Assembly: GCA_964559985.1 (NCBI GenBank)
Contig: CAZLJX010000003.1
Coordinates: forward strand, 109,416 to 173,415
Reading direction: 5' to 3'
From: an uncultured Bacteroidales bacterium
GTDB lineage: Bacteria; Bacteroidota; Bacteroidia; Bacteroidales; CAZLJX01
Length of the DNA stretch: 64,000 bases
A program made the position numbers and the translations under genes. Below, in pieces: positions 39,162 through 53,483 of the stretch (position 1 is the first letter of the stretch; each line of letters opens with the position of its first letter). A model generated the notes under the pieces. That model saw only the letters and a program-made list of their open reading frames with translations, had not been told where the DNA came from and did no database searches.

Positions 39162-39301
39162 ATTTGTTTCTCCTAGTTTTTCATTTTAGCGTAAAATTAT
39201 AAGAAAAGCCGAATTATTTCAAAATACCGCAAAAAAAAACTGAATAATCCTTAAAAAATCTTATCAGTTTCATATTTTTGTATGGAATCATAATTGCTGA
39301 A

Positions 39302-39973
39302 ATGGGTAAAAAAGCGATCGTTTTTGGAGCTACCGGTTTAGTTGGAAGTCACCTGGTTGATCTTCTGGCCAGCGATGACCGTTATTCCGAAATCCTTGTT
39401 TTTGTTAGAAGACGTTACGTTCATCCCTCACCCAAAATAAAAACGATTCTGGCTGATTTTTCCATACCACATTCATTTGCCGGTGATGTAAAAGGTGATG
39501 AGGTTTTTTGCTGCCTTGGCACAACCATGCGCCAGTCGCAGCAAAGCCATACTGCTTTCCGTTCGGTCGATATCGATCTGGCTGTTAAAATTGCTGAAAC
39601 AGCTCATCATAACGGAATACCTTCTTTTATTGTTATTTCTTCAATAGGTGCATCGGCCCGAAGCCGCAATTTCTATCTCCGGACAAAAGGGAAAATGGAA
39701 CTTAAAGTGAAAAAGTTTGCTTTTAAAACCCTGGTCATTGTAAGGCCTTCATTACTTCTCGGAAAACGTACTGAAAAGCGTATGGCAGAAAAAGCCGGCC
39801 AGATTCTTAATCATATGCTGGGATTTGCTTTGTTCGGAAAATGGAAAAAATATAAAGCCATCCATGCCAGCACCCTTGCCTGTGCTATGATTGAACTTGC
39901 CAATACCAGCCAGGGTAATGTAATTGCCGAAAACGATTTGTTGCTGACCTACCGGAACAAAAAAAATCAATAG
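39302..39973 (+). CDS. NAD(P)H-binding protein (atypical SDR / NmrA-like)
   Basis: Likely start Met9 (MGKKAIVFGATGLVGSHLV, ATG 39302) with a Rossmann GxxGxxG motif. Confidence 0.7.
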   Translation: MGKKAIVFGATGLVGSHLVDLLASDDRYSEILVFVRRRYVHPSPKIKTILADFSIPHSFAGDVKGDEVFCCLGTTMRQSQQSHTAFRSVDIDLAVKIAETAHHNGIPSFIVISSIGASARSRNFYLRTKGKMELKVKKFAFKTLVIVRPSLLLGKRTEKRMAEKAGQILNHMLGFALFGKWKKYKAIHASTLACAMIELANTSQGNVIAENDLLLTYRNKKNQ

Positions 39974-41712: not shown

Positions 41713-42090
41713 ATGAATATTCCTGCTCAGTTAAAGTACACACACGACCATGAATGGATCAGGGTTGAAGGTAATTACGGGTATATTGGGGTTACTGATT
41801 ATGCCCAAAGCCAACTTGGCGACGTGGTTTTTGTCGAAATAGAATCGTTGGGTAAAAAATTGGCAAAGGGACAGGCTTTCGGAACCATCGAAGCTGTAAA
41901 AACCGTATCGGAAATGTATATGCCTGTTGCGGGCGAAGTGGTTGAAGTGAATACGGCCATCAACAACTCACCTGAAGTAGTAAACAAGGATCCTTATGGC
42001 GAAGGCTGGATGATAAAAATACTGATTACCAATCCTGCTGAACTCAATGATTTGTTCGATGCAGCAAAATACCAGGCCACATTAGGCTAA
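41713..42090 (+). CDS. gcvH: Glycine cleavage system protein H
   Basis: Likely start Met16 (MNIPAQLKYTHDHEWI, ATG 41713), with the lipoyl-lysine motif EAVKTVSE. Confidence 0.92.
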   Translation: MNIPAQLKYTHDHEWIRVEGNYGYIGVTDYAQSQLGDVVFVEIESLGKKLAKGQAFGTIEAVKTVSEMYMPVAGEVVEVNTAINNSPEVVNKDPYGEGWMIKILITNPAELNDLFDAAKYQATLG

Positions 42091-42109
42091 TGTTTTTCTT
42101 TTTATGTTA

Positions 42110-42170
42110 ATACCTGTAAAAACCTGTTTCCTGGTTTTATATAATAAGGGAAACAGGATTTTACAGGTAT
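42110..42170 (+). terminator. Long near-perfect hairpin after gcvH (terminator or structured element)
   Basis: Arms ATACCTGTAAAAACCTGTTTCC (42110..42131) and GGAAACAGGATTTTACAGGTAT (42149..42170) pair at 21 of 22 positions around a 17-nt loop. Followed by TTTAATTTTC. Confidence 0.6.
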
Positions 42171-42187
42171 TTTAATTTTCTATCAAC

Positions 42188-42874
42188 ATGTCAGGGAAAA
42201 ATGTCATTATTGTTGCCGGCGGAAAAGGCACCCGCATGAAAAGCGATATTCCCAAGCAATTTATGATGCTTGGCAATAAACCTGTTTTAATGCATACGAT
42301 AGAAAATTTTTATATCTCTGATCCACAAATCAATATACTGGTGGTTATCCCGTCAGCCTATCATCAATACTGGGAAGAATTATGCAGCGCCCTGAAATTT
42401 GAAATTCCTCATCAGCTTATTGCCGGTGGTGAAGAACGTTTTTATTCGGTAAAAAACGGGTTGGACCAGGTTCCCGAAAATGGATTAGTCGCCATACACG
42501 ATGGTGTGAGGCCGCTGGCAAGCCCTGCATTGATAAACCGTTGCTTTGAAACTGCAGCTAAACATGGCAGTGCCATACCTGTTACAGGGGTTTCAGAATC
42601 ACTCAGGCAAATCACTTCAATGCATTCAATTCCGGTCGACCGCAGCCAATACCGGTTGGTACAGACCCCCCAGGTTTTTGATACCAGGCTGATAAAAAAA
42701 GGCTATACGCTGCCATATCATCCATCTTTTACCGACGATGCCACCGTCTTTGAAGCTGCCATTGGCCCGGTAACCCTTACCGAGGGTGAAAAATCAAATA
42801 TAAAAATCACCTGCCCTGAAGATCTGGTTATAGCGGAGGCATTGATTAAAAATCAAAAAAAAAACCGGCATTAA
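42188..42874 (+). CDS. ispD: 2-C-methyl-D-erythritol 4-phosphate cytidylyltransferase
   Basis: 228 aa with IIVAGGKGTRM and VAIHDGVRP motifs. Confidence 0.92.
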   Translation: MSGKNVIIVAGGKGTRMKSDIPKQFMMLGNKPVLMHTIENFYISDPQINILVVIPSAYHQYWEELCSALKFEIPHQLIAGGEERFYSVKNGLDQVPENGLVAIHDGVRPLASPALINRCFETAAKHGSAIPVTGVSESLRQITSMHSIPVDRSQYRLVQTPQVFDTRLIKKGYTLPYHPSFTDDATVFEAAIGPVTLTEGEKSNIKITCPEDLVIAEALIKNQKKNRH

Positions 42875-42889
42875 AGTCGGTTTTTTTTT
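42855..42889. terminator. A-run/T-run hairpin at the ispD stop (possible bidirectional terminator)
   Basis: AAAAAAAAAACCG-gcattaaagt-CGGTTTTTTTTT. Only 3 G:C pairs plus A:T pairs. The ispD stop codon lies in the loop. Confidence 0.45.
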
Positions 42890-42909
42890 GATATAATTAC
42901 GTCATTTTA

Positions 42910-43647
42910 TCAATTTACAGCATTCAATTTAGATTTTATTTCATTCAGATTTCTGTAAAATAAAATCCTGTATCTTCTTTTAATCCAATATGTTCTATTC
43001 TCATGAATGAGTGAATCAATAACAGTGTTATTCTTTTTTATCACTTCAAGCATTCTATTTAATTTGACGATACTATCCGTGAGTATATGCATTGAATTAC
43101 TGTCTGTAATGTAGAATTTTAGTGTATCTGAGTAGTAAAGAGTATCATGCCGAACTATTATCCTGTTTTGCTGTTTTCCGGTTTTATAAAAAACAGATGA
43201 AGTTTTATAGTACTTATTGTTTTCCAATAGATTGTTTATAGTTAGTTTTGCTTCAGATACGTAATCACCTCCATTTATTTTTTTGACCCGGTTGCCCATC
43301 TGATTGAATATTAATATTGTAGGTGTATAAGTTATACCATCAAGATATCCAAGCATCAACGACACAGGCCTTTTATCATAATCTCTGTCATAACGGTTTT
43401 TTGTCAAGTTAATCTGATGAAGTATAACATATTGATTTTCTTTAAAGTATTTTATTAATTCTTTGTTAATCAGTTTACATGGGCCACATGTATGTGTAGA
43501 ATAAATGAATATATTCACTTTCCCAGGATGACATAAGCTGCTGAGGTTGTAAGCAACCTCACTTCCGTCGTATTCAAAAACAGTGATTTGCGCATTTATA
43601 AATGAGCTAATAAAGGCAAAAATTATTAATATTGTTATTCTTTTCAT
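42910..43647 (-). CDS. Exported thioredoxin-fold protein with C-terminal helical extension
   Basis: 245 aa with a signal peptide MKRITILIIFAFISSFINAQ, a CxxC active-site-like motif THTCGPCK and a cis-Pro-like TPTILIF block. The C-terminal ~100 aa is unassigned. Confidence 0.65.
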   Translation of the reverse strand: MKRITILIIFAFISSFINAQITVFEYDGSEVAYNLSSLCHPGKVNIFIYSTHTCGPCKLINKELIKYFKENQYVILHQINLTKNRYDRDYDKRPVSLMLGYLDGITYTPTILIFNQMGNRVKKINGGDYVSEAKLTINNLLENNKYYKTSSVFYKTGKQQNRIIVRHDTLYYSDTLKFYITDSNSMHILTDSIVKLNRMLEVIKKNNTVIDSLIHENRTYWIKRRYRILFYRNLNEIKSKLNAVN

Positions 43648-43650
43648 TTT

Positions 43651-44265
43651 TTAATTATTATCGTTAAAATCAATACCTGGCATACAACCACATTCACTTA
43701 TAGGTTTGAGAATGAGATTATCATGAGGGCTCCCATCAGGGCAACGCCCATGATAAACGTAGGTTGAATCGTATACTACATTATCTAATTGATAACTAAA
43801 CTCCTGCGTATAATAATACTGGTGGCATTTTGAACACCTATGTATTCTGCTCGGCGCTTTCACAGAGCCTTTACACCAAAATTTTGGGTCCCGGATTAAG
43901 TTTAAAAAATCAGGATGAACGAGCACTAAATCTTTATTCAAAGAATAAGTAAGTATATAAGATTCCCCTTTCCAATCAACAAACTGAAATTCGATGTTTC
44001 GTGCTCGTACCTTTATAACCAAGCCTTTAGCCTTTGCTGATGATGTTTGTATTTTCCCAGCAACATCATAAAATAAGAAAGTCGGATAAATACACTCGTT
44101 TGACAGACTATAATTAGCTGCAGAACTTATGGTTAATAATTCATCATTCGATTTTTGTATAAAGTCATCAACCGACAATGTACAAACTTCCTCATCGCAT
44201 AAAATCTGGCTATAGGTAATTTGGCTGTACATTACAACAATCAGAAAAATTATTTTTGATTTCAT
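43651..44265 (-). CDS. Exported Cys-rich protein, unknown function
   Basis: 204 aa with a signal peptide MKSKIIFLIVVMYSQITYSQ and nine Cys (LCDEEVC, HRCSKCH, GRCPDG, ECGCMPG). Its start overlaps the upstream stop (ATGA at 44262..44265). Confidence 0.6.
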   Translation of the reverse strand: MKSKIIFLIVVMYSQITYSQILCDEEVCTLSVDDFIQKSNDELLTISSAANYSLSNECIYPTFLFYDVAGKIQTSSAKAKGLVIKVRARNIEFQFVDWKGESYILTYSLNKDLVLVHPDFLNLIRDPKFWCKGSVKAPSRIHRCSKCHQYYYTQEFSYQLDNVVYDSTYVYHGRCPDGSPHDNLILKPISECGCMPGIDFNDNN

Positions 44266-45161
44266 GGTATTATTTTATTGAGGTTACTTTTTAATTCAAG
44301 TATTTTCATTAGTTTATCCTTCCGGTCATATTTTAAATAAATGGCTTCCAGGCCATCGTAATAGTGTATCAAACTGTACTTTACAATTTCATCTTGTGGA
44401 TTTTGAAGGAAATACTTTATTAATCTTTGATGAAGCTGACCAGTTTTATTAATATATTTAGTTAAATCTACTCCACGATTTGCCTTTGAATCCAGGTACA
44501 AAATTGAATCGGTAAGGCGATATAAAAGGGCCGATTGATTATGAATTTCTACCCTATTTTCAAGACTTTGAAGCTTACCCATCAGCAAATTATTCGCCAA
44601 ATTCAAGCTATCAATGGTTTTTGAATTTGTTTTTTTAATTCTTTTATTTTTAGCAAATTCTTCATTCATTTTTTCTATAACATGCTGCTTCAGGAGCATT
44701 TCTTCGTGCAAATACTTAAGCGTTCGGCTTCGGCGGGTCTTCTCAGTACCACAATTACAAAACAAGGGATATACAGGTTCAGCATTAATATCTTTCTGCG
44801 CTCCAACCAGCAAATAAACCTGCCCAAAAAAATTTTGCGGAAGAACGGGATATTGACACAAAACTTTATATTGAATAGCGTTTGAGAATTGAACCTGCAT
44901 ATTATTTATTTCTCTTCTTACCCCAACATAATTTATTTTTCTTCCTGTCAATTGGCCAATTTTAAATTCTACATCATCCATAGCATCCAGGTAGGCACTT
45001 TTCATATTAATGCCTGATCCCGAAGCGACAAAAACCTCTATTGTGCTATTACTTGGCGGCTTTTTAAATATCCACCCAGGAAGCTTTTGTGAAAAACCCT
45101 GGGCACAAAAAACACAAAGCATGAAAAAAATGGCAGCTATCAAAACCAGCTGCCATTTCAT
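44262..45161 (-). CDS. Exported protein, LPP20-like N-terminal region plus coiled coil, unknown function
   Basis: Likely start Met13 (MKWQLVLIAAIFFMLCVFCAQG, ATG 45161) rather than 45197. The segment VFVASGSGINMKSAYLDAMDDVEFKIGQL loosely resembles LPP20-type lipoproteins. Confidence 0.5.
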   Translation of the reverse strand: MKWQLVLIAAIFFMLCVFCAQGFSQKLPGWIFKKPPSNSTIEVFVASGSGINMKSAYLDAMDDVEFKIGQLTGRKINYVGVRREINNMQVQFSNAIQYKVLCQYPVLPQNFFGQVYLLVGAQKDINAEPVYPLFCNCGTEKTRRSRTLKYLHEEMLLKQHVIEKMNEEFAKNKRIKKTNSKTIDSLNLANNLLMGKLQSLENRVEIHNQSALLYRLTDSILYLDSKANRGVDLTKYINKTGQLHQRLIKYFLQNPQDEIVKYSLIHYYDGLEAIYLKYDRKDKLMKILELKSNLNKIIP

Positions 45162-45168
45162 TTTCGCT

Positions 45169-45921
45169 TTATTGAATAACCAACGAATCAGCCACATGTT
45201 GTTGCGTTTTATTCAGCTCATTATCAATCTCTTGCCACAGCCTCTCTTCATTAAAATCAACCTCCATTGATTTACGTTGATCGGCTATCGCTTTTTTTAT
45301 CGTTGATTTTCCGACACTAACAGTTATGTAACATTTATAGCTGCCATTTTTTAGCTGAGACATTTCCTGACAGGTAACTTTAAGATACTTGTTAATGGCA
45401 TTCCGGCTCGATTCAAATACTCCCGATTGAATTCTAGATATGTCTTTGGTCGCTCCACCGGCAACGTGAGTGTCAGATAGATACCTCTTTACGCCTTGTT
45501 TATAGGCTCCTGCCCATAATTGCATTAAGTTGGCTTTAGCCTGGCTATAAGCGGTATTATAAGCATCATTTTCCTGAAGTGATACTGATGAAATACCAGT
45601 TGCCCATATAACATCCATTGATGTATCTACCTGAAAACAAGGCACGTAAACAGACCTCTCGTTTACCGGAAGTTGTTTTTTTGCCAAAAAATTGCGTAAT
45701 GCAATCAACTCTGCATTGCGTTTCTCATCCGCAATTTTTGCTTCGAAAAACTGTTGCTTTGATTGTTCAGCCAGCCGTTGCTTTTCCAAAACCTGGCGGG
45801 TTCTTACTATCTCCAGACTATCCTGGATAATTCCACGCCGATACTGGGCGTTTTTTACTACGTTACACCCTATTATAAAAAGGAGGGCGATAACTAAAAT
45901 AATCATTTGTTTCATAGGCAA
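45169..45921 (-). CDS. Lipoprotein, LPP20-like, unknown function
   Basis: 250 aa with a lipobox LLFIIGC. The segment VIWATGISSVSLQENDAYNTAYSQAKANLMQL resembles the LPP20 family pattern. First gene of a four-gene operon. Confidence 0.5.
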   Translation of the reverse strand: MPMKQMIILVIALLFIIGCNVVKNAQYRRGIIQDSLEIVRTRQVLEKQRLAEQSKQQFFEAKIADEKRNAELIALRNFLAKKQLPVNERSVYVPCFQVDTSMDVIWATGISSVSLQENDAYNTAYSQAKANLMQLWAGAYKQGVKRYLSDTHVAGGATKDISRIQSGVFESSRNAINKYLKVTCQEMSQLKNGSYKCYITVSVGKSTIKKAIADQRKSMEVDFNEERLWQEIDNELNKTQQHVADSLVIQ

Positions 45922-45993
45922 TTAATTTTTAATATTTGAGTAATTCCTGTGTCCCGGATTTTGTCTTTGCAGAAGGCTCCGTTTTCCCCCTGT

Positions 45994-46019
45994 TATTTCA
46001 ACTTCCTGGAAATGAAATA
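45994..46019 (-). terminator. Hairpin between the HD-led operon and the exported-protein operon
   Basis: TATTTCA-ac-TTCC-t-GGAA-a-TGAAATA, 12 nt after the stop at 46031. There is no U-tract, so its function is uncertain. Confidence 0.3.
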
Positions 46020-46030
46020 CATCTGATTCT

Positions 46031-46561
46031 TCATATGTTTGATTTGTTAATATTTGATAAAATCGTTTCGACAGTTATTCCAAGTGTGTAAGCAAGAATG
46101 TAACGGTATTCCTTTAGTCTATCGATTTCAAACTTGAGTTGCTTATTCTTTATTCTGTAGGCCAAATTAATTTTTTGGCTTATGTGGTATCGCAAATCAT
46201 TAGTAGATATGCTAATATCACAGTTATTCATACCGTAACAATGCAATTCTTCCTTAAAAAAATACCGGTAACATTCATTAGCAATTCTCAGCAGCGCACC
46301 TTTATCATTATTGAAAGATAAAACGGGCTGGCCTCCTAACTTTATGAGCCTTTTTACTAAAATCGCATACAAAAAGGCAGCCGAAATATCTTTAACCAAC
46401 TGTTTATCAGTAATTAAACTAGACAAAATGGTCACCGGGTGTTCGTAAGCCGGGTTGCTGGCAACTACCCTGATAAATTCAATTATCGCTTCAGAAAGCA
46501 TTTCAAAATCGTCCGCGGTATAAATATGAAGAAAACAATATTTTAAATCTTCCTTTTCCAT
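46031..46561 (-). CDS. Hypothetical cytoplasmic protein (176 aa), third gene of the HD-led operon
   Basis: Track ORF with no signal peptide, TM helix or motif I recognise. Its ATG lies 1 nt after the upstream stop (TAA-T-ATG). Confidence 0.55.
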   Translation of the reverse strand: MEKEDLKYCFLHIYTADDFEMLSEAIIEFIRVVASNPAYEHPVTILSSLITDKQLVKDISAAFLYAILVKRLIKLGGQPVLSFNNDKGALLRIANECYRYFFKEELHCYGMNNCDISISTNDLRYHISQKINLAYRIKNKQLKFEIDRLKEYRYILAYTLGITVETILSNINKSNI

Positions 46562-46562
46562 A

Positions 46563-46931
46563 TTAATTGAGGCTTATCGGTATTAAATTTTCGTAGGCTT
46601 CAGCTATACGCTGAGATAGCTTATATTTTTTTATTTTGTTATTTTTCAACATATTTATGAAAAATGAATCGTTTGCTCTAAAAAGCATCACCTTGCAGGT
46701 AAGATACTTCAGCTCTTCTTCACACAAAAAGAAATTGGGTTTCAGCAATCTCACGATATACAATTGCTCGGTAACCCGACATAGCCATTGATATTCAATT
46801 ACTTGCTTCTTGCTCCAAATAATATTTCCCTGCAGTTTTTCTTCTTCGTATATTAATAATATGAGCAGAAGCTTGTCAATGAGCCATGAAGTAAAGGCAG
46901 CATTTTCTATGTTTTGAACTATCTCTCTCAT
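46563..46931 (-). CDS. Hypothetical cytoplasmic protein (~122 aa), second gene of the HD-led operon
   Basis: The track starts at TTG 46937. ATG 46931 (MREIVQNIE..) is the likelier start. Either lies within 7 nt of the upstream TGA. No recognisable motif. Confidence 0.55.
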   Translation of the reverse strand: MREIVQNIENAAFTSWLIDKLLLILLIYEEEKLQGNIIWSKKQVIEYQWLCRVTEQLYIVRLLKPNFFLCEEELKYLTCKVMLFRANDSFFINMLKNNKIKKYKLSQRIAEAYENLIPISLN

Positions 46932-46938
46932 AATCAAA

Positions 46939-47448
46939 TCAATTTATTAATTTCTCTAATTCCTTGTATAGTAATGGATTATATTTTCCCAGGCGTTCAG
47001 CAAGAAACCGACTTTCGTTTTTGTAATAATTTATTTTGTCCTCACTCCATGATAATCTTGGATTGGTGAGGTTTGCAAGACGGTCAGCCAATTTTACTAC
47101 TGCTGTTTCACGGCAACGTGTTTCAATGATTCTTTCGATACTATCTTCAATCTGATCCGTTTTTTTCAGACTTTTATCTTTGGACAGTCCTAAAACGGCA
47201 GGAAGAATCTCAATAAAGCCATAACGTGTTAAATCGTCGGAGGTGCAAGGGGTGTCTTCAATGATATCGTGCAGATAACCAATGTTAATGGCAAGCTCCA
47301 GATTAAAATCCTGCTTTTTAACATATGTCAATCGCAGAATTTTTTCTATCTTGCAAAGGTGACCATCGTAATAAGATATCCCCTCGGGCAGATAAAACTG
47401 ATTTCGGTGGTACCATTTCGCTAAAAGTTTTGCATTCATATTTGACAT
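46939..47448 (-). CDS. HD-domain protein of the RelA/SpoT hydrolase type (small alarmone hydrolase-like)
   Basis: 169 aa. AKWYHRNQF..YYDGHL, then IGYLHDIIEDTPCT and VKLADRLANL, match the H...HD(x)2ED...D and KLADRL blocks of the (p)ppGpp hydrolase domain. There is no synthetase domain. Confidence 0.65.
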   Translation of the reverse strand: MSNMNAKLLAKWYHRNQFYLPEGISYYDGHLCKIEKILRLTYVKKQDFNLELAINIGYLHDIIEDTPCTSDDLTRYGFIEILPAVLGLSKDKSLKKTDQIEDSIERIIETRCRETAVVKLADRLANLTNPRLSWSEDKINYYKNESRFLAERLGKYNPLLYKELEKLIN

Positions 47449-47453
47449 TTTTG

Positions 47454-47526
47454 ATTCAAATATATTGAATTTTTTTATCCGATATAACTGATAATCAATA
47501 CTTTAACTAGACGTCTATAAGACGTC
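47454..47526. promoter_or_regulatory. Divergent control region with palindromic elements
   Basis: The intergenic region is 87 bp. It holds an inverted repeat ATTCAA-atata-TTGAAT (47454..47470), which contains a minus-strand TATATTTG -7-like box. It also holds two copies of the palindrome GACGTC (47510..47515 and 47521..47526) spaced 11 bp centre to centre, ending 9 nt before the ATG of the large NTPase gene. Confidence 0.35.
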
Positions 47527-47535
47527 CAAACGTAT

Positions 47536-50500
47536 ATGCCACCAAAATCAAATAAACCGATAACATCAACACAAGCAAAGATTTTAATTTTAGAACTCCT
47601 AAAAAATCAGGATCGGGAAATAGCTGATTTATTATATGAATTTCTATCATCACAAAAAGATAAAAACCAAATAAGTAAGCATGCTGCTTTTACAAAAGCA
47701 TATTCAAAACCACAGATTTTTATTGATGATCTACCAAAATTCTCGACTAAAAAAGATCGTAATGAATGGCCAGCATGGCAGAAAATTTTTCATGATTTAA
47801 AACCTGATACCTTCAAATTTGTAGAAAGAAAACCTCCTAATGAGATACGCAAAAAGATAAAGCAATACCTCATAAATCAACAAACAATTAATATCGCTGA
47901 TACGGATTTTTGGTCTCCTTCATTATCTCCCGAACTAAATGTTTTAACCCCAAGGGAGGAAGAAGTTGATAAATTATGCAGCTTTTTATTTAAAAAAAAT
48001 AAAATAACCATCTATTATGGAAACCCCCGTATCGGAAAATCTGAGATAATTAACCAATTGATTAGAAAATTAAAAAAAACTGAAAATAATTTCAGATACC
48101 GGATCCTGGATTGCAAGACGATAGATATAAGTGAAGAAAAACCATTTAGCAAAACCGATGATTTTTTTATGCGCCTGATTGATAATACCAGGTACTTGCT
48201 TATCTTAGAAAATGCTGAAGTACTTAATTTTAATAATTCAAAAATTGGTAGTTTTTTAAGTCGGTTGGCAGACCAAAGCAACAATAAGCAATTGAATTTA
48301 TTGATCATAAGCAGAATTAGAAATGATATTTTAAGTGTTGATAATGAGCATCTTAATATAATTGAATCGGAGCAATTCATCAACCCTGAAATTTTAAATA
48401 ATATTAAACAAATAATAAATAATGATGGTATTTTTATTACATTGATTGAACTTTATGACCATCACCGGCTGCACGTTGGCTTGTTGCAGAAAATAAAGCA
48501 ATCAGAAAATGAGGTTGGCCAATTATTAGAAATGGCTGAGAATAAAGATGTACTTAACCTGCTTAAAGATGATTATGCCGAACAATTCAATACTTTAAAT
48601 GATCCCGAGAAAAAATTCTTCATTACCAGCATTATAACCGGTAAAGTAGTTTTGAAAACAAACAATGATAAAGTCATCGCAAATAGCATTTGTTCAAAGG
48701 GCCTTTTTGACCGGACTTATAATAATGGCTATATCATTCATCCATACATTGCTGAAATAGCTTTTGAATTTTATAAAGAAAAAAAAGAGCTACATAAGAT
48801 TGCTGAACTAATTGTAACAGAATTAAACTTTAACGGGTCTTACTTTGAAAGCTTTATTATCTGTGCTAAATGTGATTTGACTAGTATTGATAACGAAGTA
48901 AAAGATTATATCACGCATTGTACCTTAAAGGAAATCAAGCACTTGAGCTCAGACCCTAACTATAATGTCGTTATTCTAAAAGCTATTATTAAATATAACA
49001 CAGATAAAGCCTTGCTGTTACTACTGGCTGAAAATTATAGATTGGCCGGGAAACTTTCTGAAGCAACTACCTACTTAGATAAAGTCAAAGATGATAAAAC
49101 AATGGCTTTTGGTTACAATACCGAATTGGGTTTTTATTTTAACGCAAAGGCTAATGAATCAAGATCAAACAATGATAAAGAGAAATATATAACATTCGCA
49201 AAAGGAGCTTTCGAAAAAGCAATTTCACTTCCATTAACTGAAAAACTTGCAGGCGAGAATGCCATCAACCGTTATCTTCAGCCTGTAATTGGTTTATATA
49301 ATTTAAATCCAGCCCCGGAAAAACAATTTGAAATCCTTTTTAACGCCTTTTGCGACCTGCATGCATATGACCAGAATTTGCCATTATATTATTTTGAGAA
49401 ATTAACTGCTTTTTTAAATACCCAACATACTCTTAATCAAAACTTTACAAAGTTCACGGAGTGTATCATATTTTATAAAAACAGGAAATTTAAAAAAGCC
49501 TATGCGATAATTCAAGAACTCGATAAAATCTCATTATTCAGTCAACAATTAATTTTTATCAATATTAAAGCCGCAGGCCTTAGAACATCGAACCCAGAAG
49601 AATCAGAAAAACTGCTTAAATCAAGTATTGAAAAAGAGAATAATGCAGAATACAACAGAATGGCATACAGGGAATTATTATTGACTTACTTTGTTAATGG
49701 TATGCTCAATAAGATTGAGTCAGATTCAGCTTTAAAATCAAATCAAGATATAATCGTTGAGGTTGCCCTGGAAGCACCTATTTGGTGGTTTGCAAAAATT
49801 ACTGACAACAATAAAAAAATAAAAGTACTTACATTCTTTAATAATAATTATAAGGAGGAGTTTAAAAATAACGGTTTATCAGACTGGTTATATGCCCAGA
49901 TAATCAAATCTTTTTTAGATGCAGGCATTAATGAAATTGATAAATACCTGCACGAACCTTGTATTCCTGATCCAAAGTCTTTTTCTGACCAAGAAGTTAA
50001 AAAAATAATTCCCATTTTACAATCTAAAATTATCGATAACCCAGATTTAATCTACCCACTGGCTCTTTTTTCATCCACCAATCAACATTATGAACAATTA
50101 CTCAGTTATTGTAATGAAATCTCAACTTTTAATGCAGAAAATTATCATTTTTTAAAATTGCTATGCAAATTAGCTGTAGACTTAAAAGACGAAAAATATA
50201 TTCCCCAACTTTCAAAAATTGATTCTTCAATTGCCAAAAATTTTTCTTATGAATTTTACCATGCAGCATTAATACTTGAAAAAACAGGCAAATATAGCTT
50301 GGCTGATGATTTTTTTAACAAAGCCATACTTCATGCATCTGAACCCGATTTTAATATGTTCTTTCATTATGCCTTCTATCTTTTAAGAAATTCAGATGTA
50401 AGTAACTTTAAAGTTCAAATTAGTGAGGCAAAAAAAAGCTGGATGTCTTCAAGATTACCAACCGACCGCCAGAGTAAACATCATGAAAAATGGTTCAATT

Positions 50501-51951
50501 TGCTCATCAAAAGCTATTTTATTAATTATGGCTTTTTCATTCATAGACCCGATAGAAATTTATTAACTAAATATAAGTCAGAGATCGATAATATTAAAAA
50601 TGAATATGATATTGATGTTAACGTGCTATACTACAGGTGGTTTGCTGACAATGGCAGTGAAAAAGAAAAAAAAGCAAATATTATAAAATTGAACAATTGG
50701 TGTAAGGATAACAAGCAATACTGGCCAACCCAAGGATTGACAGTTCAAAACTCAACAGAAATTATAAACAGTGAATCAGAAAAAGAAAAGTCTACTCATG
50801 AAAATACCTATAATCAAGCAAATAAACATTTCAACGATGGTTCTTATTCAAACGCTTTTGATTTATATTTAAAACTGGCTTTTGAAGGTTATTCACCTGA
50901 CAACAATAGGAAACAGGTGTTTTTTAATAATTTAATTTTTAGCAGTATAAGATCAGGAAAAGAAATTAATATTGCCGATATCCATGAAGAATTGTTGTTA
51001 GATGTGGGAAAAACCTATAAAAGTCTAAAGATAATGGATAAAAACATTGAATGTTTAGAAAAAATACCATCAAACCATAAAGATTATTATTCCTCATCTG
51101 TCATTCTTGCCAGAATATATCTCGAAGAAAACAATCTTATTGAAGCTGGCAAATATTTAAAAATCAATAAACTAAATAAAAAAGATCCGGAAAGTTTAAT
51201 AACCTATGCAGCACTGCTGGATGCTAAAAATAATTTTAAAGAAGCACTTACTTGCATAGACATGGCATTCAACAGCACACACGATTATGGCACATTAAAA
51301 TACAGGAGAAATCTGATTAAACGACATCCTGATGCTTTTCAATCTGATGAAAAGAAAATTACAGAGCTATTATACAAAATTGTACCGTTTATTAAGAATA
51401 AAAATTATAATTTATCCGATACGCAAATCATTGATTTAATAAGCTTAACAAAAAAACATCCTGATCATTTTGTGCTGGCCAGAAAAGCACTTCATATTAT
51501 TAATCATACAAGTAATGGATCAGGGCTAAAAAATTATGACGAAGAATTTGCAGAAATATTAGTCAACCATTACTTCTTTGGGATTTCTGAATTTTATAAA
51601 TTTTCTGTTTATATGAATGCCCCTGATGATGAATATTTTCATTTTTACAGAATGTTGGGTAACTTCTGCAAAGGGTGTAAATACTATCATATAGCCGAGT
51701 ACTTTTACCAGCATGCCTTATCAGTCATTAAAAATGATAAAAATAAAAAAGGTGTGATCAATTTAAACCTTGCCCTTCTGTACTATGAAAAAATTAAAAA
51801 TCACCAATCAGAAGATGAATTGAGGAAATTAAATTTGTTTAAATCAGAGGCAGAAAAATACTTTACAGAAACACGCAATAATGAAAAGCTTGTTCATTGC
51901 AACAATTTAACACTTGATTTAAATAAATTGAATCATGTGAATGATAATTAA
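47536..51951 (+). CDS. Giant STAND/AAA_16-type P-loop NTPase with long TPR-like C-terminal region
   Basis: 1471 aa. LTPREEEVDKLCSFL precedes the Walker A motif GNPRIGKS (48019..48042), and a Walker B-like YLLILENAE lies at 48196..48210. About 1100 aa of helical repeat sequence with TPR-like units follows (e.g. AENYRLAGKLSEATTYLDKV, ILARIYLEENNLIEAGKYLKI, NLALLYYEKIKN). The N-terminal ~140 aa is unassigned. Confidence 0.7.
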   Translation: MPPKSNKPITSTQAKILILELLKNQDREIADLLYEFLSSQKDKNQISKHAAFTKAYSKPQIFIDDLPKFSTKKDRNEWPAWQKIFHDLKPDTFKFVERKPPNEIRKKIKQYLINQQTINIADTDFWSPSLSPELNVLTPREEEVDKLCSFLFKKNKITIYYGNPRIGKSEIINQLIRKLKKTENNFRYRILDCKTIDISEEKPFSKTDDFFMRLIDNTRYLLILENAEVLNFNNSKIGSFLSRLADQSNNKQLNLLIISRIRNDILSVDNEHLNIIESEQFINPEILNNIKQIINNDGIFITLIELYDHHRLHVGLLQKIKQSENEVGQLLEMAENKDVLNLLKDDYAEQFNTLNDPEKKFFITSIITGKVVLKTNNDKVIANSICSKGLFDRTYNNGYIIHPYIAEIAFEFYKEKKELHKIAELIVTELNFNGSYFESFIICAKCDLTSIDNEVKDYITHCTLKEIKHLSSDPNYNVVILKAIIKYNTDKALLLLLAENYRLAGKLSEATTYLDKVKDDKTMAFGYNTELGFYFNAKANESRSNNDKEKYITFAKGAFEKAISLPLTEKLAGENAINRYLQPVIGLYNLNPAPEKQFEILFNAFCDLHAYDQNLPLYYFEKLTAFLNTQHTLNQNFTKFTECIIFYKNRKFKKAYAIIQELDKISLFSQQLIFINIKAAGLRTSNPEESEKLLKSSIEKENNAEYNRMAYRELLLTYFVNGMLNKIESDSALKSNQDIIVEVALEAPIWWFAKITDNNKKIKVLTFFNNNYKEEFKNNGLSDWLYAQIIKSFLDAGINEIDKYLHEPCIPDPKSFSDQEVKKIIPILQSKIIDNPDLIYPLALFSSTNQHYEQLLSYCNEISTFNAENYHFLKLLCKLAVDLKDEKYIPQLSKIDSSIAKNFSYEFYHAALILEKTGKYSLADDFFNKAILHASEPDFNMFFHYAFYLLRNSDVSNFKVQISEAKKSWMSSRLPTDRQSKHHEKWFNLLIKSYFINYGFFIHRPDRNLLTKYKSEIDNIKNEYDIDVNVLYYRWFADNGSEKEKKANIIKLNNWCKDNKQYWPTQGLTVQNSTEIINSESEKEKSTHENTYNQANKHFNDGSYSNAFDLYLKLAFEGYSPDNNRKQVFFNNLIFSSIRSGKEINIADIHEELLLDVGKTYKSLKIMDKNIECLEKIPSNHKDYYSSSVILARIYLEENNLIEAGKYLKINKLNKKDPESLITYAALLDAKNNFKEALTCIDMAFNSTHDYGTLKYRRNLIKRHPDAFQSDEKKITELLYKIVPFIKNKNYNLSDTQIIDLISLTKKHPDHFVLARKALHIINHTSNGSGLKNYDEEFAEILVNHYFFGISEFYKFSVYMNAPDDEYFHFYRMLGNFCKGCKYYHIAEYFYQHALSVIKNDKNKKGVINLNLALLYYEKIKNHQSEDELRKLNLFKSEAEKYFTETRNNEKLVHCNNLTLDLNKLNHVNDN

Positions 51952-51974
51952 TAGGTACTGGATTGCAAAACCAA

Positions 51975-52589
51975 CTACAAATTTGCAAACTGTATTCTCA
52001 ACTGTTTCTCAGTGAGTTTAAACGACCGGCGGTGATAGGGTGATATCCCAAATTTCTCAATCATCTGCCTGTGCATCTTTGTTGGATAACCTTTATTCCT
52101 GTTCCACTGGTAACAAGGATATTCCAGATGAATTTTCTGCATGTATTCATCCCTGAAAGTTTTAGCCAGCACTGAAGCTGCAGCAATTGACATATAAAGC
52201 GCATCGCCTTTTACAATGCATTTATGCTGCACTGAATCATAAGGTTTAAAACGGTTTCCGTCAACAATGATATAGCCCGGGTTGATGTTTAACGCATCGA
52301 GTGCCTTGTGCATGGTCAGAATAGAAGCATTTAAAATATTGACTTTATCGATGCAGGCTGCATCTGACTGTGCCACTGCCCATGCCATTGCATGCTTTAT
52401 AATCTCATCCCTTAGTTTTAACCGTATTTTTGGGCTAAGCTGTTTTGAATCATTTAACTCCGGGTGAAAAAAGTCTGCCGGCAAGATCACTGCGGCAGCA
52501 AATACAGGGCCAGCAAGGCATCCACGGCCAGCCTCGTCGCAACCTGCTTCATTTATCTTACCTGAAAACGACGTTTTGAGCATATACAA
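51975..52589 (-). CDS. rnhB: Ribonuclease HII
   Basis: 204 aa with GCDEAGRGCLAGPV and the DSKQLS motif. Confidence 0.93.
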   Translation of the reverse strand: MYMLKTSFSGKINEAGCDEAGRGCLAGPVFAAAVILPADFFHPELNDSKQLSPKIRLKLRDEIIKHAMAWAVAQSDAACIDKVNILNASILTMHKALDALNINPGYIIVDGNRFKPYDSVQHKCIVKGDALYMSIAAASVLAKTFRDEYMQKIHLEYPCYQWNRNKGYPTKMHRQMIEKFGISPYHRRSFKLTEKQLRIQFANL

Positions 52590-52736
52590 ATATAGGCGTT
52601 TTTTCTCCTGCTTATAAAGTCAGAAATATAAATTACATCAGGCAAATCAACGAAAAGCAACCATCCCGTCAATTATACCAATGATTATCGGTTTGAGTAT
52701 AAAAATTTATACATTTATAGCGTCATTTTAATTACT

Positions 52737-53483
52737 ATGTACCGTTGTCTTTTTTTTACTATTCTTTTGTTCTTATATGGTACTCTTTTTTGCCAGGTAA
52801 AAGATACTTCGGCGGTAATACCCATGATATCGTTTAATACTGGTTATGATATTCCGGCCGCTGACATGGCAAAGCGTTTTGGCCCTAATCTTAAAGCTGG
52901 TTTATCTTTTACCATCAAATGGCCACACTTTTTTCTACTGGGCGCTGATTTCAATTACCTTTTCAGCGAAAAACTCAATGAAACCGGAATTTTCGATAAC
53001 CTGAAAACCTCATCAGGAGTTATCATTAACCGTTTTGGCGAAATAGCACGCATAAAACTGAGCGAAAGAGGATTTTACGCCGGGATTAAAGCAGGTAAAT
53101 TGTTCCCGCGTTACGGTCCAAATCCACACTGCGGTATTATTGCCACTTTTTCGGCTGGTATGCTGCAACATAAAATCAATATTGAAAACGACGGAAATAA
53201 TGTACCACAATTGCTTGGCGATTACACCAAAGGTTACGACCGGCTTACCAACGGCCTTGCTTTGCAACAATTTGTTGGTTATATGTTTATGAACAATAAA
53301 GGAACCTATAATTTTTATGCCGGGTTAGAATTTACGCAGGGTTTCACACAAAGCCGCAGGTCGTGGGATTTTGACAGGCAGTGCCGCGATACCCAAAAAC
53401 GAATTGATCTTTTGTTTGGTATCCGTGCCGGATGGATTATTCCGCTTTACCGTCGAATGTCAACCGAATATTATTATTACTGA
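52737..53483 (+). CDS. Exported protein, probable outer-membrane beta-barrel, unknown function
   Basis: 248 aa with a signal peptide, alternating amphipathic strands and an aromatic C-terminus (EYYYY). Its stop overlaps the waaA start (TGATG at 53481..53485). Confidence 0.5.
   Translation: MYRCLFFTILLFLYGTLFCQVKDTSAVIPMISFNTGYDIPAADMAKRFGPNLKAGLSFTIKWPHFFLLGADFNYLFSEKLNETGIFDNLKTSSGVIINRFGEIARIKLSERGFYAGIKAGKLFPRYGPNPHCGIIATFSAGMLQHKINIENDGNNVPQLLGDYTKGYDRLTNGLALQQFVGYMFMNNKGTYNFYAGLEFTQGFTQSRRSWDFDRQCRDTQKRIDLLFGIRAGWIIPLYRRMSTEYYYY

What the first reader, a model, noticed from the sequence alone, without database searches (positions are those of the whole stretch)
42890..51960. AT-rich ~9 kb accessory insert between ispD and rnhB
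Seen: eight consecutive ORFs with no housekeeping assignment. Both borders are convergent ends of core genes (ispD stop at 42874, rnhB stop at 51975). My hand counts of G+C on single 60-nt lines are 17/60 (line 43021), 10/60 (46621), 20/60 (48001) and 13/60 (50101) inside the interval. Outside they are 21/60 (42241, ispD), 24/60 (52201, rnhB) and 32/60 (9001, tuf). Inference: this is a horizontally acquired or fast-evolving accessory locus. I found no integrase, tRNA or flanking direct repeat, so the route of acquisition is unknown.
Basis: partly seen in the sequence, partly recalled or inferred. Interest (0 to 1): 0.55.

Follow-up and report, generated by a model that had tools for sequence, protein, structure and literature searches.

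The report
Fast-evolving orphan gene cluster, Bacteroidota
The AT-rich 9 kb between ispD and rnhB is a real cluster of eight genes found only in one poorly sampled Bacteroidota lineage; it evolves unusually fast and looks like a resident conflict or envelope locus rather than a recently imported mobile island.

Summary
The interval 42890-51960 has 32.2% G+C against 40.0% for the rest of the window, about 15 SD below other 9-kb windows. It holds eight ORFs between the convergent ends of ispD and rnhB, with no integrase, tRNA or flanking repeat.

The locus evolves fast, but nothing shows horizontal acquisition. Both other known variants of the lineage carry the same genes in the same order. One of them (L035) also shows the ispD junction. 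No empty site exists in the databases, and substitutions show no drift towards the 40% G+C of the rest of the window (equilibrium G+C 0.32, current 0.32).

The content is a seven-gene minus-strand operon:
- a small alarmone hydrolase;
- two cytoplasmic orphan proteins;
- an LPP20-like lipoprotein;
- two secreted proteins;
- a secreted CGPC thioredoxin-like protein.

These genes are under purifying selection (omega 0.13-0.56). The g2-g3 segment exists as deeply divergent alleles between near-identical flanks.

A divergently transcribed 1471-aa P-loop plus TPR-like protein has no homologue among 1.84 billion representatives. It evolves at omega about 1 yet keeps its reading frame.

The likeliest role is a lineage-specific conflict or envelope module. 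That role is inferred, not shown.

The parts
42855..42889 (.). Bidirectional terminator-like hairpin shared by the convergent ispD and g1: A10, ACCGGC, a 6-nt loop, GTCGGT, T9. It overlaps the ispD stop codon.
   Evidence: Read directly from the sequence. The weak sub-threshold Rfam hits here reflect only this hairpin.
42910..43647 (-). g1, 245 aa. Secreted thioredoxin-like protein: signal peptide, a CGPC active-site motif, a cis-Pro 'TPT' loop and a C-terminal extension of about 110 aa. It is the last gene of the operon.
   Evidence: Pfam Thioredoxin_2 E 5e-5, 24 bits, below the 27-bit cut-off. PHROG thioredoxin domain E 9e-4. PDB thioredoxin f2 aligned over the CGPC motif, E 0.026. Hydrophobic N-terminus. 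omega 0.28.
43651..44265 (-). g2, 204 aa. Secreted Cys-rich orphan protein with 9 Cys, all invariant in the three variants. It is part of the hypervariable segment.
   Evidence: No family hit. Signal peptide. 80% aa identity to L044, with dS 0.66 and omega 0.18.
44262..45197 (-). g3, 311 aa. Secreted or membrane-anchored orphan protein: an N-terminal globular domain plus a C-terminal coiled-coil-like half. It is the most divergent gene between variants.
   Evidence: No family hit. 63% aa identity to L044, with dS 1.25 and omega 0.18. Nucleotide identity falls to 64-77% across 43760-45160, between flanks at 97% and 86-90%.
45169..45915 (-). g4, 248 aa. Lipoprotein (lipobox IIGC) with a long N-terminal helix and a C-terminal beta-alpha-alpha-beta-beta domain that resembles LPP20-like lipoproteins in fold. 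It is the most constrained gene of the cluster.
   Evidence: omega 0.13-0.15. AF2 model mean pLDDT 64, C-terminal domain 66-89. Foldseek against BFVD: phage 'Lipoprotein' E 4e-5 and 'LPP20 lipoprotein' of Campylobacter phage CP8 E 5e-4, TM 0.3-0.43. No PDB match. Only two 90%-identity clusters exist in 5.8 billion.
45916..46030 (-). Remnant of a 39-40 codon ORF ('x40') between g5 and g4. It is intact and overlaps the g4 start in both relatives. In the window it is interrupted by an in-frame stop.
46031..46561 (-). g5, 176 aa, cytoplasmic orphan protein.
   Evidence: No family or PDB hit. omega 0.43-0.56. L044 carries a 15-codon in-frame deletion.
46563..46931 (-). g6, 122 aa, cytoplasmic orphan protein.
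   Evidence: No family or PDB hit. omega 0.42-0.50.
46939..47439 (-). g7, 166 aa. Small alarmone hydrolase (single-domain RelA/SpoT-type HD hydrolase). It is the first gene of the operon.
   Evidence: PDB 6yvc/6z3o small alarmone hydrolase, E 8e-12, aligned over residues 8-164. NCBIfam spoT_relA E 3e-9. PHROG 990 E 9e-19. The HD, ED and DRxxN motifs are present and invariant in the three variants. omega 0.17-0.47.
47440..47535 (.). 96-bp divergent control region. It holds two elements. One is the palindrome TTGACAT-N5-ATGTCAA next to the g7 start; it is perfect in the relatives and has a 1-nt deletion in the window. The other is GACGTC-TATAA-GACGTC (47510-47526), 10 nt before the g8 ATG and invariant in all three variants. 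A TATATTTG motif on the minus strand matches TAnnTTTG, which I recall as the Bacteroidota -7 promoter consensus.
   Evidence: The promoter and operator roles are inferred. The relatives carry a 10-nt insertion, so the spacing is not conserved.
47536..51951 (+). g8, 1471 aa. Orphan giant protein in four parts: an N-terminal region of about 140 aa; a P-loop NTPase (Walker A GNPRIGKS at 162-169, Walker-B-like LLILENAE at 221-228); a region with no family hit; and TPR-like repeats towards the C-terminus.
   Evidence: Only itself found in 5.8 billion clusters and, for residues 1-650, in 1.84 billion representatives by full HMMER. Only sub-threshold P-loop/STAND and TPR hits. No PDB hit. omega 0.87-1.15, all indels in frame, no stops. 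Shuffled DNA gives at most 136 stop-free codons.

Best explanation
The interval is a resident, lineage-restricted, rapidly diversifying gene cluster. It is not a recently inserted mobile island. It predates the split of the three known variants of this Bacteroidota lineage. Its low G+C is the steady state of weakly constrained coding sequence under AT-biased substitution.

It has two transcription units that share a 96-bp control region.

Unit 1 (minus strand, tightly packed; g2-g3 and g3-g4 overlap) encodes:
- a small alarmone hydrolase that removes 3'-pyrophosphate from (p)ppGpp/(p)ppApp-type nucleotides;
- two cytoplasmic orphan proteins;
- four exported proteins: an LPP20-like lipoprotein, a coiled-coil protein, a nine-cysteine protein and a CGPC thioredoxin-like protein. 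The last probably manages the disulfides of the others.

Unit 2 encodes a 1471-aa P-loop NTPase with TPR-like repeats. I take it to be an NTP-dependent sensor or switch of the STAND kind, acting on or with the operon.

My reading is a conflict-type module (phage or interbacterial) acting at the cell envelope. It rests on near-neutral-looking but frame-preserving evolution of g8, deep recombining alleles of the exported g2-g3 pair, and an alarmone hydrolase of a kind known to serve as enzymatic immunity.

Shown: composition, gene set, synteny in the relatives, selection regimes, mosaicism, SAH homology and absence of homologues.
Inferred: operon status, the regulatory link between g8 and the operon, the NTPase activity and the conflict role.
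For: Composition and borders.

Same genes in the same order in L035 and L044, the same ispD junction in L035, and only island-bearing contigs for identical ispD and rnhB.

No amelioration (GC>AT 61, AT>GC 62, equilibrium 0.32, current 0.32).

G+C deficit mainly at codon positions 1 and 2 (0.405/0.283/0.329 against 0.490/0.349/0.379).

Purifying selection on g1-g7 (omega 0.13-0.56).

g8: omega 0.87-1.15 in all three pairs. About 160 substitutions separate the window from L035, and 5.7% of possible single-nucleotide changes would create a stop, yet no stop is present. All six indel events are in frame. Walker motifs are invariant..

Mosaic g2-g3 alleles (dS 0.66-1.25 against 0.08-0.14 for g5-g8; 64-77% nucleotide identity next to a 97% flank).

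SAH assignment. SAH/Aph hydrolases act as immunity to (p)ppApp synthetase toxins: PMC10083569.

g4 LPP20-like fold.

Orphan status.

Short gaps or overlaps between operon genes.
Against: - No family model of any defence or immunity system reaches threshold (best is mads_8, E 1.3e-3, on the P-loop only).
- The STAND assignment of g8 rests on sub-threshold hits and motifs. Its AF2 model is useless (pLDDT 34).
- omega about 1 is also what relaxed constraint gives. With three sequences, positive selection cannot be separated from relaxation.
- The flanks are housekeeping genes, not a defence island.
- No toxin or effector domain is recognisable.
- No relative lacking the locus is known, so even 'accessory' is unproven.
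- The polarisation test assumes the tree ((window, L035), L044), and recombination could disturb it.
Confidence: 0.5

Rival explanations
1. A genomic island recently acquired by horizontal transfer from an AT-rich donor.
For: G+C is 8 points below the rest of the window, and the tetranucleotide correlation is the lowest in the window. Codon usage of g1, g3, g5 and g8 is 2-3 SD from length-matched core genes. GC3 of g8, g1 and g2 is 0.27-0.30 against 0.38 for the core. All products but one are orphans.
Against: There is no integrase, transposase, tRNA, att-like repeat or phage gene. Only 35 and 23 bp are left at the borders. The locus has the same gene order in all three variants and the same ispD junction in L035. 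No similar sequence exists in any other taxon. g4-g7 have native-like GC3 and g4 has native-like G+C. There is no amelioration signal.
Confidence: 0.13
2. A lineage-specific envelope biogenesis or stress operon with no role in conflict. g8 would be its STAND-type transcriptional regulator (N-terminal helix-turn-helix, NTPase switch, TPR sensor) acting on the conserved palindromes in the shared 96-bp promoter region.
For: The arrangement is divergent, with two palindromes conserved in all three variants. Four exported proteins include a thioredoxin-like protein and an LPP20-like lipoprotein. The flanks are housekeeping genes. The first 40 residues of g8 are predicted helical (low confidence).
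Against: No DNA-binding domain is detected in g8. The N-terminal 400 codons of g8 evolve at pN/pS 1.0-1.5, which is unusual for a dedicated regulator. The deep allelic divergence of g2-g3 next to 97%-identical DNA suggests diversifying or frequency-dependent selection.
Confidence: 0.2
3. An array of orphan immunity genes against interbacterial toxins, like the acquired interbacterial defence clusters of Bacteroidales (that comparison is from my own knowledge). The SAH would neutralise (p)ppApp-synthetase effectors. The periplasmic proteins would neutralise envelope-acting effectors.
For: SAH/Aph-type hydrolases protect against Tas1/Apk2 (p)ppApp toxins (PMC10083569). The cluster mixes small cytoplasmic and periplasmic or lipoprotein products, has low G+C and is made of orphan sequences.
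Against: No product matches a known immunity family. Gene content and order are fixed in three variants, where such arrays would show presence/absence shuffling. Overlapping or abutting genes suggest one co-translated system. No recombinase is associated. g8 does not fit the model.
Confidence: 0.12
4. Decaying, non-functional DNA in which the ORFs are accidents of annotation.
For: Low G+C, no homologues, g8 omega about 1. The small ORF x40 is broken in the window.
Against: g1-g7 have omega 0.13-0.56. A 1471-codon ORF compares with at most 136 stop-free codons in shuffles of the same DNA. All g8 indels are in frame, and no stop is present although about 10 stop-creating changes would be expected under neutrality. 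The catalytic motifs of the SAH and the Walker motifs are invariant.
Confidence: 0.03

Closest known systems
Small alarmone hydrolases (single-domain RelA/SpoT-homologue hydrolases, e.g. P. aeruginosa SAH, PDB 6yvc; Aph1 of Bacteroides caccae)
   Same: g7 aligns end to end with solved SAHs (E 8e-12) and keeps the HD, ED and DRxxN motifs. Like Aph1 and toxSAS-associated SAHs, it sits in a non-core gene cluster.
   Different: No (p)ppApp/(p)ppGpp synthetase toxin or Tis1-like partner is next to it. It matches Aph1 itself only weakly (7smg, E 0.17). None of 96 loci with distant relatives shares any neighbouring gene.
STAND NTPases with N-terminal effector and C-terminal TPR sensor (Avs/AVAST-type antiviral proteins; 'novel STAND' conflict NTPases; MalT/AfsR-type regulators)
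   Same: Size (1471 aa). Order of parts: a short N-terminal region, a P-loop NTPase, then TPR-like repeats. Walker A is present. There are weak hits to ATPase_2, nSTAND3, nSTAND6, NB-ARC and NPHP3_N, all starting at residue 140-152. It diversifies fast.
   Different: No model reaches its threshold. No PADLOC Avs hit. Walker B reads LLILEN instead of hhhhD[DE]. No recognisable effector or DNA-binding domain. No homologue at all outside the lineage.
LPP20-like lipoproteins (Pfam PF02169 kind)
   Same: g4 is a lipoprotein. The best Foldseek matches of its modelled C-terminal domain are phage 'Lipoprotein' and 'LPP20 lipoprotein' models (E 4e-5 and 5e-4, probability 1.0).
   Different: No Pfam LPP20 hit at E <= 0.1. 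TM-scores are only 0.3-0.43, from a model of moderate confidence. g4 has an extra helical stalk of about 80 residues.
Classical genomic islands or islets of horizontally acquired DNA
   Same: Deviant G+C and oligonucleotide usage, orphan content, position between two core genes.
   Different: No mobility genes, tRNA or repeats. Same gene order in all known variants and the same ispD junction in L035. Compositional equilibrium rather than amelioration.

Membership tests
Small alarmone hydrolase (RSH HD-domain hydrolase) | Single-domain protein of about 170-200 aa, alignable over its whole length with solved SAH/Mesh1 structures | tested here: met
   6yvc E 8e-12, query 8-164 against chain 26-180. 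Also 6z3o, 3nqw (Mesh1) and 4yf1.
Small alarmone hydrolase (RSH HD-domain hydrolase) | Catalytic His-Asp, Glu-Asp and Asp-Arg-x-x-Asn motifs | tested here: met
   LHDIIEDT and KLADRLANL are aligned to the same motifs of 6yvc. They are invariant in three variants.
Small alarmone hydrolase (RSH HD-domain hydrolase) | Curated family model above threshold | tested here: inconclusive
   Pfam HD 20.6 bits against a 22-bit cut-off. NCBIfam spoT_relA E 3e-9, but that model describes full-length RSH proteins.
Small alarmone hydrolase (RSH HD-domain hydrolase) | Hydrolysis of (p)ppGpp and/or (p)ppApp | not testable with these tools
   Needs enzymology.
toxSAS-SAH or Apk-Tis-Aph toxin/immunity module | Adjacent RelA/SpoT-type synthetase toxin | tested here: not met
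   No RSH synthetase domain in any of the eight products at E <= 0.1.
STAND NTPase (Avs-like, nSTAND, NB-ARC, NACHT, MalT-like) | Walker A GxxxxGK[ST] | tested here: met
   GNPRIGKS at residues 162-169. G, GKS and the flanking residues are invariant in three variants.
STAND NTPase (Avs-like, nSTAND, NB-ARC, NACHT, MalT-like) | Walker B hhhhD[DE] | tested here: inconclusive
   The invariant LLILENAE (221-228) has Glu-Asn in place of Asp-Asp/Glu.
STAND NTPase (Avs-like, nSTAND, NB-ARC, NACHT, MalT-like) | Family model above threshold, or a significant match to a solved STAND protein | tested here: not met
   Best hits: AAA_14 E 8e-4, ATPase_2 1.4e-3, nSTAND3 0.01, NB-ARC 0.07, all below cut-off. 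PADLOC gives only mads_8 at 1.3e-3. PDB gives nothing.
STAND NTPase (Avs-like, nSTAND, NB-ARC, NACHT, MalT-like) | C-terminal repeat (TPR/WD40/LRR) sensor region | tested here: inconclusive
   TPR_8 E 2e-3, TPR_19 2.6e-4 and TPR_17 0.016, all sub-threshold and only in residues 900-1250. No internal repeats by self-BLAST.
Horizontally acquired genomic island | Deviant base composition | tested here: met
   32.2% against 40.0% G+C, about 15 SD.
Horizontally acquired genomic island | Mobility genes, tRNA target or flanking direct repeats | tested here: not met
Horizontally acquired genomic island | Presence/absence polymorphism among relatives, or similar DNA in unrelated taxa | tested here: not met
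   Present in all three variants and in all contigs with identical flanks. No homologues elsewhere. More distant relatives share no synteny, so an empty site cannot be defined.
Horizontally acquired genomic island | Amelioration towards host composition | tested here: not met
   Equilibrium G+C is 0.32, equal to the current 0.32, from 123 polarised GC<->AT changes.
Thioredoxin-fold oxidoreductase (g1) | CxxC active site, cis-Pro loop and family model | tested here: inconclusive
   CGPC and TPT motifs are present. Thioredoxin_2 scores 24 bits against a 27-bit cut-off.
LPP20-like lipoprotein (g4) | Lipobox plus LPP20 fold | tested here: inconclusive
   Lipobox IIGC. Foldseek hits to phage LPP20-type lipoproteins at E 4e-5 to 5e-4, but TM <= 0.43 and model pLDDT 64. 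No Pfam hit.

The most novel reading that the evidence does not exclude
g8 and the divergent operon together form a previously undescribed NTP-dependent conflict system. A fast-evolving STAND-like sensor with no detectable relatives would control an envelope-located effector set: the LPP20-like lipoprotein, hypervariable secreted partners and a dedicated thioredoxin. A co-encoded alarmone hydrolase would limit or reset nucleotide-based toxicity.
Probability: 0.12. Interest if true: 0.7.

Novelty: new variant of a known kind. Interest (0 to 1): 0.4.

Why it matters
The finding has three uses.

- As a caution. A sharp G+C trough between two core genes need not mark imported DNA. Here, substitution polarity and the distribution of the deficit over codon positions point to resident, weakly constrained sequence.
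- As a lead. A 1471-aa protein has no detectable relative among 1.84 billion representatives, yet its reading frame is kept at dN/dS about 1. It sits next to exported proteins with deep recombining alleles and an alarmone hydrolase. That is the profile expected of an undiscovered conflict system in an unsampled Bacteroidota lineage.
- In practice. The value is limited until a cultured or complete genome of the lineage exists.

Tried and rejected
Searches that found nothing above threshold:
- Pfam, NCBIfam, PADLOC and PHROGs on all eight products. Only the SAH and weak thioredoxin, P-loop and TPR hits appeared.
- PDB sequence searches for g1-g8, and a three-sequence profile of the g8 N-terminus. 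Only the SAH was found.
- Word-indexed search of 5.8 billion clusters with g8 and g4, and full HMMER of g8 residues 1-650 against 1.84 billion representatives. Only the lineage itself was found.
- Rfam and tandem repeats in 42000-53000: nothing above threshold.
- Sigma-70 promoter and terminator scan: counts at shuffle level.
- Literature search for the SRA run accessions, to learn the habitat: none found.

Structure work:
- AF2 of g8 residues 1-520 from a single sequence gave pLDDT 34 and was not used for fold search.
- The g4 model against PDB gave no match.

Synteny and context:
- The ispD-rnhB synteny test in 33 GTDB species representatives and two closer metagenomic relatives was uninformative. 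Nothing but ispD is shared.
- The search for an empty site through exact ispD and rnhB products found only island-bearing contigs of the same strain.
- 96 viral and metagenomic loci with distant SAH relatives share no neighbour with this cluster.

Ideas considered and dropped:
- Paralogy among island proteins: none.
- Relatedness of g3 and g4: hhalign aligns the expected regions but is not significant (E 0.09, probability 0.6%).
- A PD-(D/E)xK nuclease motif in the g8 N-terminus: the Lys is not conserved in L035.
- A diversity-generating retroelement or an invertible promoter as the source of variation: there is no reverse transcriptase and no suitable inverted repeats.


Full report
OBSERVATION

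The interval is as described. G+C is 32.2% for 42890-51960 and 40.0% for the rest of the window. The 369 other 9-kb windows have SD 0.52% and never fall below 38.7%. Tetranucleotide usage deviation correlates less with the rest of the window (0.871) than any other 9-kb chunk does, although the rpoB end is close at 0.876.

Eight ORFs fill the interval almost completely. I call them g1-g7 (minus strand) and g8 (plus strand). ispD, ending at 42874, and rnhB, ending at 51975, are confirmed by precomputed Pfam hits on the identical public contig. Both are convergent with the cluster. Only 35 bp and 23 bp of spacer remain at the borders.

There is no tRNA nearer than 10.5 kb in window coordinates. 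There are no flanking repeats beyond chance. No integrase, transposase or phage structural hit was found. No Rfam family reaches threshold.

GENE CONTENT

Minus strand, in order of transcription:
- g7 (46939-47439) is a small alarmone hydrolase. It aligns end to end with solved SAHs (6yvc, E 8e-12) and has the HD, ED and DRxxN motifs.
- g6 (122 aa) and g5 (176 aa) are cytoplasmic and match nothing.
- g4 (248 aa) has a lipobox (IIGC). Its model has a long helix followed by a beta-alpha-alpha-beta-beta domain (pLDDT 66-89 in that domain). The best Foldseek matches are phage proteins annotated 'Lipoprotein' and 'LPP20 lipoprotein' (E 4e-5 and 5e-4, TM 0.3-0.43). No solved structure matches.
- g3 (311 aa) and g2 (204 aa, nine invariant cysteines) have signal peptides and no relatives.
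- g1 (245 aa) has a signal peptide and a sub-threshold thioredoxin domain carrying the canonical CGPC motif.

Gaps between these genes are 7, 1, 115, -29, -4 and 3 nt. One operon is therefore the natural reading, though this is inferred. The 115-nt gap holds a 39-40 codon ORF that is intact in both relatives but has a stop in the window.

Plus strand: g8 (47536-51951) is 1471 aa. It starts 96 bp from g7.
- Walker A (GNPRIGKS, residues 162-169) and a Walker-B-like strand (LLILENAE, 221-228) are both invariant in three variants.
- It has only sub-threshold hits to AAA_14, ATPase_2, nSTAND3, nSTAND6, NB-ARC and TPR models.
- It has no PADLOC Avs hit and no PDB hit, even with a profile.
- The single-sequence AF2 model is unusable (pLDDT 34).

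The shared control region carries two palindromes conserved in all variants.

ORPHAN STATUS

- g8 finds only itself in 5.8 billion protein clusters.
- Its first 650 residues find only itself in a full HMMER pass over 1.84 billion representatives.
- g4 finds only two clusters, at 96% and 90% identity.
- Cluster look-ups of the other products show one to four members each.
- 96 viral and metagenomic loci with distant SAH relatives (at most 41% identity over the full-length matches) contain no relative of any other island gene.

RELATIVES AND SYNTENY

The window's own strain recurs at 100% identity in several sequencing runs, always with the cluster.

Two other variants exist.
- L035 is a 39.9-kb contig. 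It covers 10 kb of the left flank and the cluster up to codon 957 of g8, in the same order and with the same ispD junction.
- L044 is a 5.9-kb contig that runs from g8 to g1.

Beyond these, the nearest ispD is 61% identical. Neither those relatives nor 33 GTDB species representatives share any neighbour of ispD with the window. The lineage is therefore poorly sampled. The proposed test (are ispD and rnhB adjacent elsewhere?) cannot be answered in either direction. No empty site was found.

EVOLUTIONARY REGIME

Against L035, seven flanking core genes have 96.6-99.8% protein identity and omega 0.03-0.34. For g1-g7 the figures are 84-96% and omega 0.14-0.45. These are real genes under somewhat relaxed purifying selection.

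g8 is different.
- omega is 0.87, 1.15 and 0.97 in the three pairs.
- pN/pS is 1.0-1.5 in the first 400 codons and 0.4-1.0 further on.
- dS (0.066) is like that of the core, so the excess is in dN.
- The frame is nevertheless maintained. All six indel events between the window and L035 are multiples of three.
- No stop occurs, although 5.7% of possible single-base changes would create one. With about 160 substitutions, roughly 10 stop-creating changes would be expected under neutrality; this figure is my arithmetic.
- Shuffled g8 DNA never exceeds 136 stop-free codons.
- I therefore read omega of about 1 as a mixture of constraint and diversification rather than decay. Three sequences cannot prove positive selection.

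The cluster is also mosaic. Between the window and L044, nucleotide identity changes along the locus:
- 97% at the g1/g2 border;
- 64-77% across g2-g3 (43760-45160);
- 86-90% in g4;
- 92-98% in g5-g7.

In the same comparison dS is 0.66, 1.25 and 0.39 for g2, g3 and g4, against 0.08-0.14 for g5-g8, while omega stays at 0.13-0.18. This is the signature of old, functional alleles exchanged by recombination. It is typical of exposed or conflict-related proteins.

WHY THE LOCUS IS AT-RICH

The deficit is present at all codon positions but is largest at positions 1 and 2. The values are 0.405/0.283/0.329 for the cluster against 0.490/0.349/0.379 for the core. The products are enriched in Phe, Tyr, Asn, Lys and Ile. 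g4-g7 have core-like GC3, and g4 has core-like G+C.

I polarised the substitutions on the window and L035 branches, using L044 as outgroup, over g5-g8. This gives 61 GC>AT and 62 AT>GC changes. The equilibrium G+C is 0.32, identical to the present value. A recent import from an AT-rich donor should instead be drifting towards 40%.

Two caveats apply. Recombination could disturb the assumed tree, and no outgroup is available for the flanks.

MECHANISM

My best reading is a resident, lineage-specific conflict or envelope module.

Shown:
- an alarmone hydrolase with intact catalytic motifs;
- four exported and three cytoplasmic products under selection;
- a giant P-loop protein whose motifs are conserved on a fast-changing background;
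- recombining alleles of the exported pair g2-g3.

Inferred:
- g8 is a STAND-like, NTP-dependent sensor or switch that works on or with the divergent operon.
- The CGPC protein g1 services the disulfides of the Cys-rich exported partners.
- The SAH clears 3'-pyrophosphorylated nucleotides made during attack or by a partner. Aph1 and SAH enzymes do this against (p)ppApp-synthetase toxins (PMC10083569).

Rivals:
- a non-conflict envelope operon with g8 as its regulator (0.2);
- a recent horizontal island (0.13);
- an orphan immunity array (0.12);
- junk DNA (0.03).

COMPARISON WITH KNOWN SYSTEMS AND VERDICT

g7 is a member of the SAH family. g1 and g4 resemble thioredoxins and LPP20-type lipoproteins at motif or fold level only. 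g8 works like a STAND NTPase on paper but fails every threshold, so I do not file it as a member of that family. The locus fails the defining tests of a mobile genomic island except for composition.

The finding is real. Its 'fast-evolving' half is right and its 'horizontally acquired' half is unsupported. Function remains inferred. Interest is moderate: orphan clusters are common in unsampled lineages, but the g8 protein and the mosaic exported alleles make a reasonable lead.

Noticed in passing
window 45916-46030 (minus strand); L035 13735-13857; L044 3415-3534: A 39-40 codon ORF between g5 and g4 overlaps the g4 start by 4 nt. It is intact in both relatives and has a conserved C-terminal half (AFC[KR]DKIRDTGI). 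In the window strain it carries an in-frame stop at codon 15.
   Followed up: partly
window 47510-47526: GACGTC-TATAA-GACGTC lies 10 nt upstream of the g8 start codon and is invariant in all three variants. It could form a perfect 6-bp RNA hairpin in the g8 leader, or act as a DNA operator.
   Followed up: partly
window 47443-47463: The palindrome TTGACAT-N5-ATGTCAA abuts the g7 start codon. It is perfect in L035 and L044 but has a 1-nt deletion in one arm in the window. The relatives also carry a 10-nt insertion further into the intergenic region.
   Followed up: partly
window 42109-42171: A 23-nt inverted repeat (96% complementary, 17-nt spacer) lies between gcvH and ispD, outside the finding. 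It gives only sub-threshold miRNA/sRNA-type Rfam hits. It is probably a terminator or attenuator hairpin.
   Followed up: no
window 45116-45170: A 23-nt inverted repeat (78% complementary, 9-nt spacer) sits exactly at the g4 stop / g3 start overlap. It may be a translational-coupling or processing hairpin.
   Followed up: no
L035 7113-7783 (equivalent to window 39278-39973): The NAD-dependent epimerase-family gene upstream of the GH25 lysozyme gene is one ORF in the window strain (called as 223 aa in L034/L037). In the relative L035 it is split into 144-aa and 92-aa ORFs, probably by a frameshift or an assembly error.
   Followed up: no
window 43760-45160 against L044: A hypervariable block covers g2-g3 (64-77% nucleotide identity). 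It is bounded by 97%-identical DNA on the g1 side and 86-90% on the g4 side. This indicates allelic replacement by recombination inside the cluster.
   Followed up: yes
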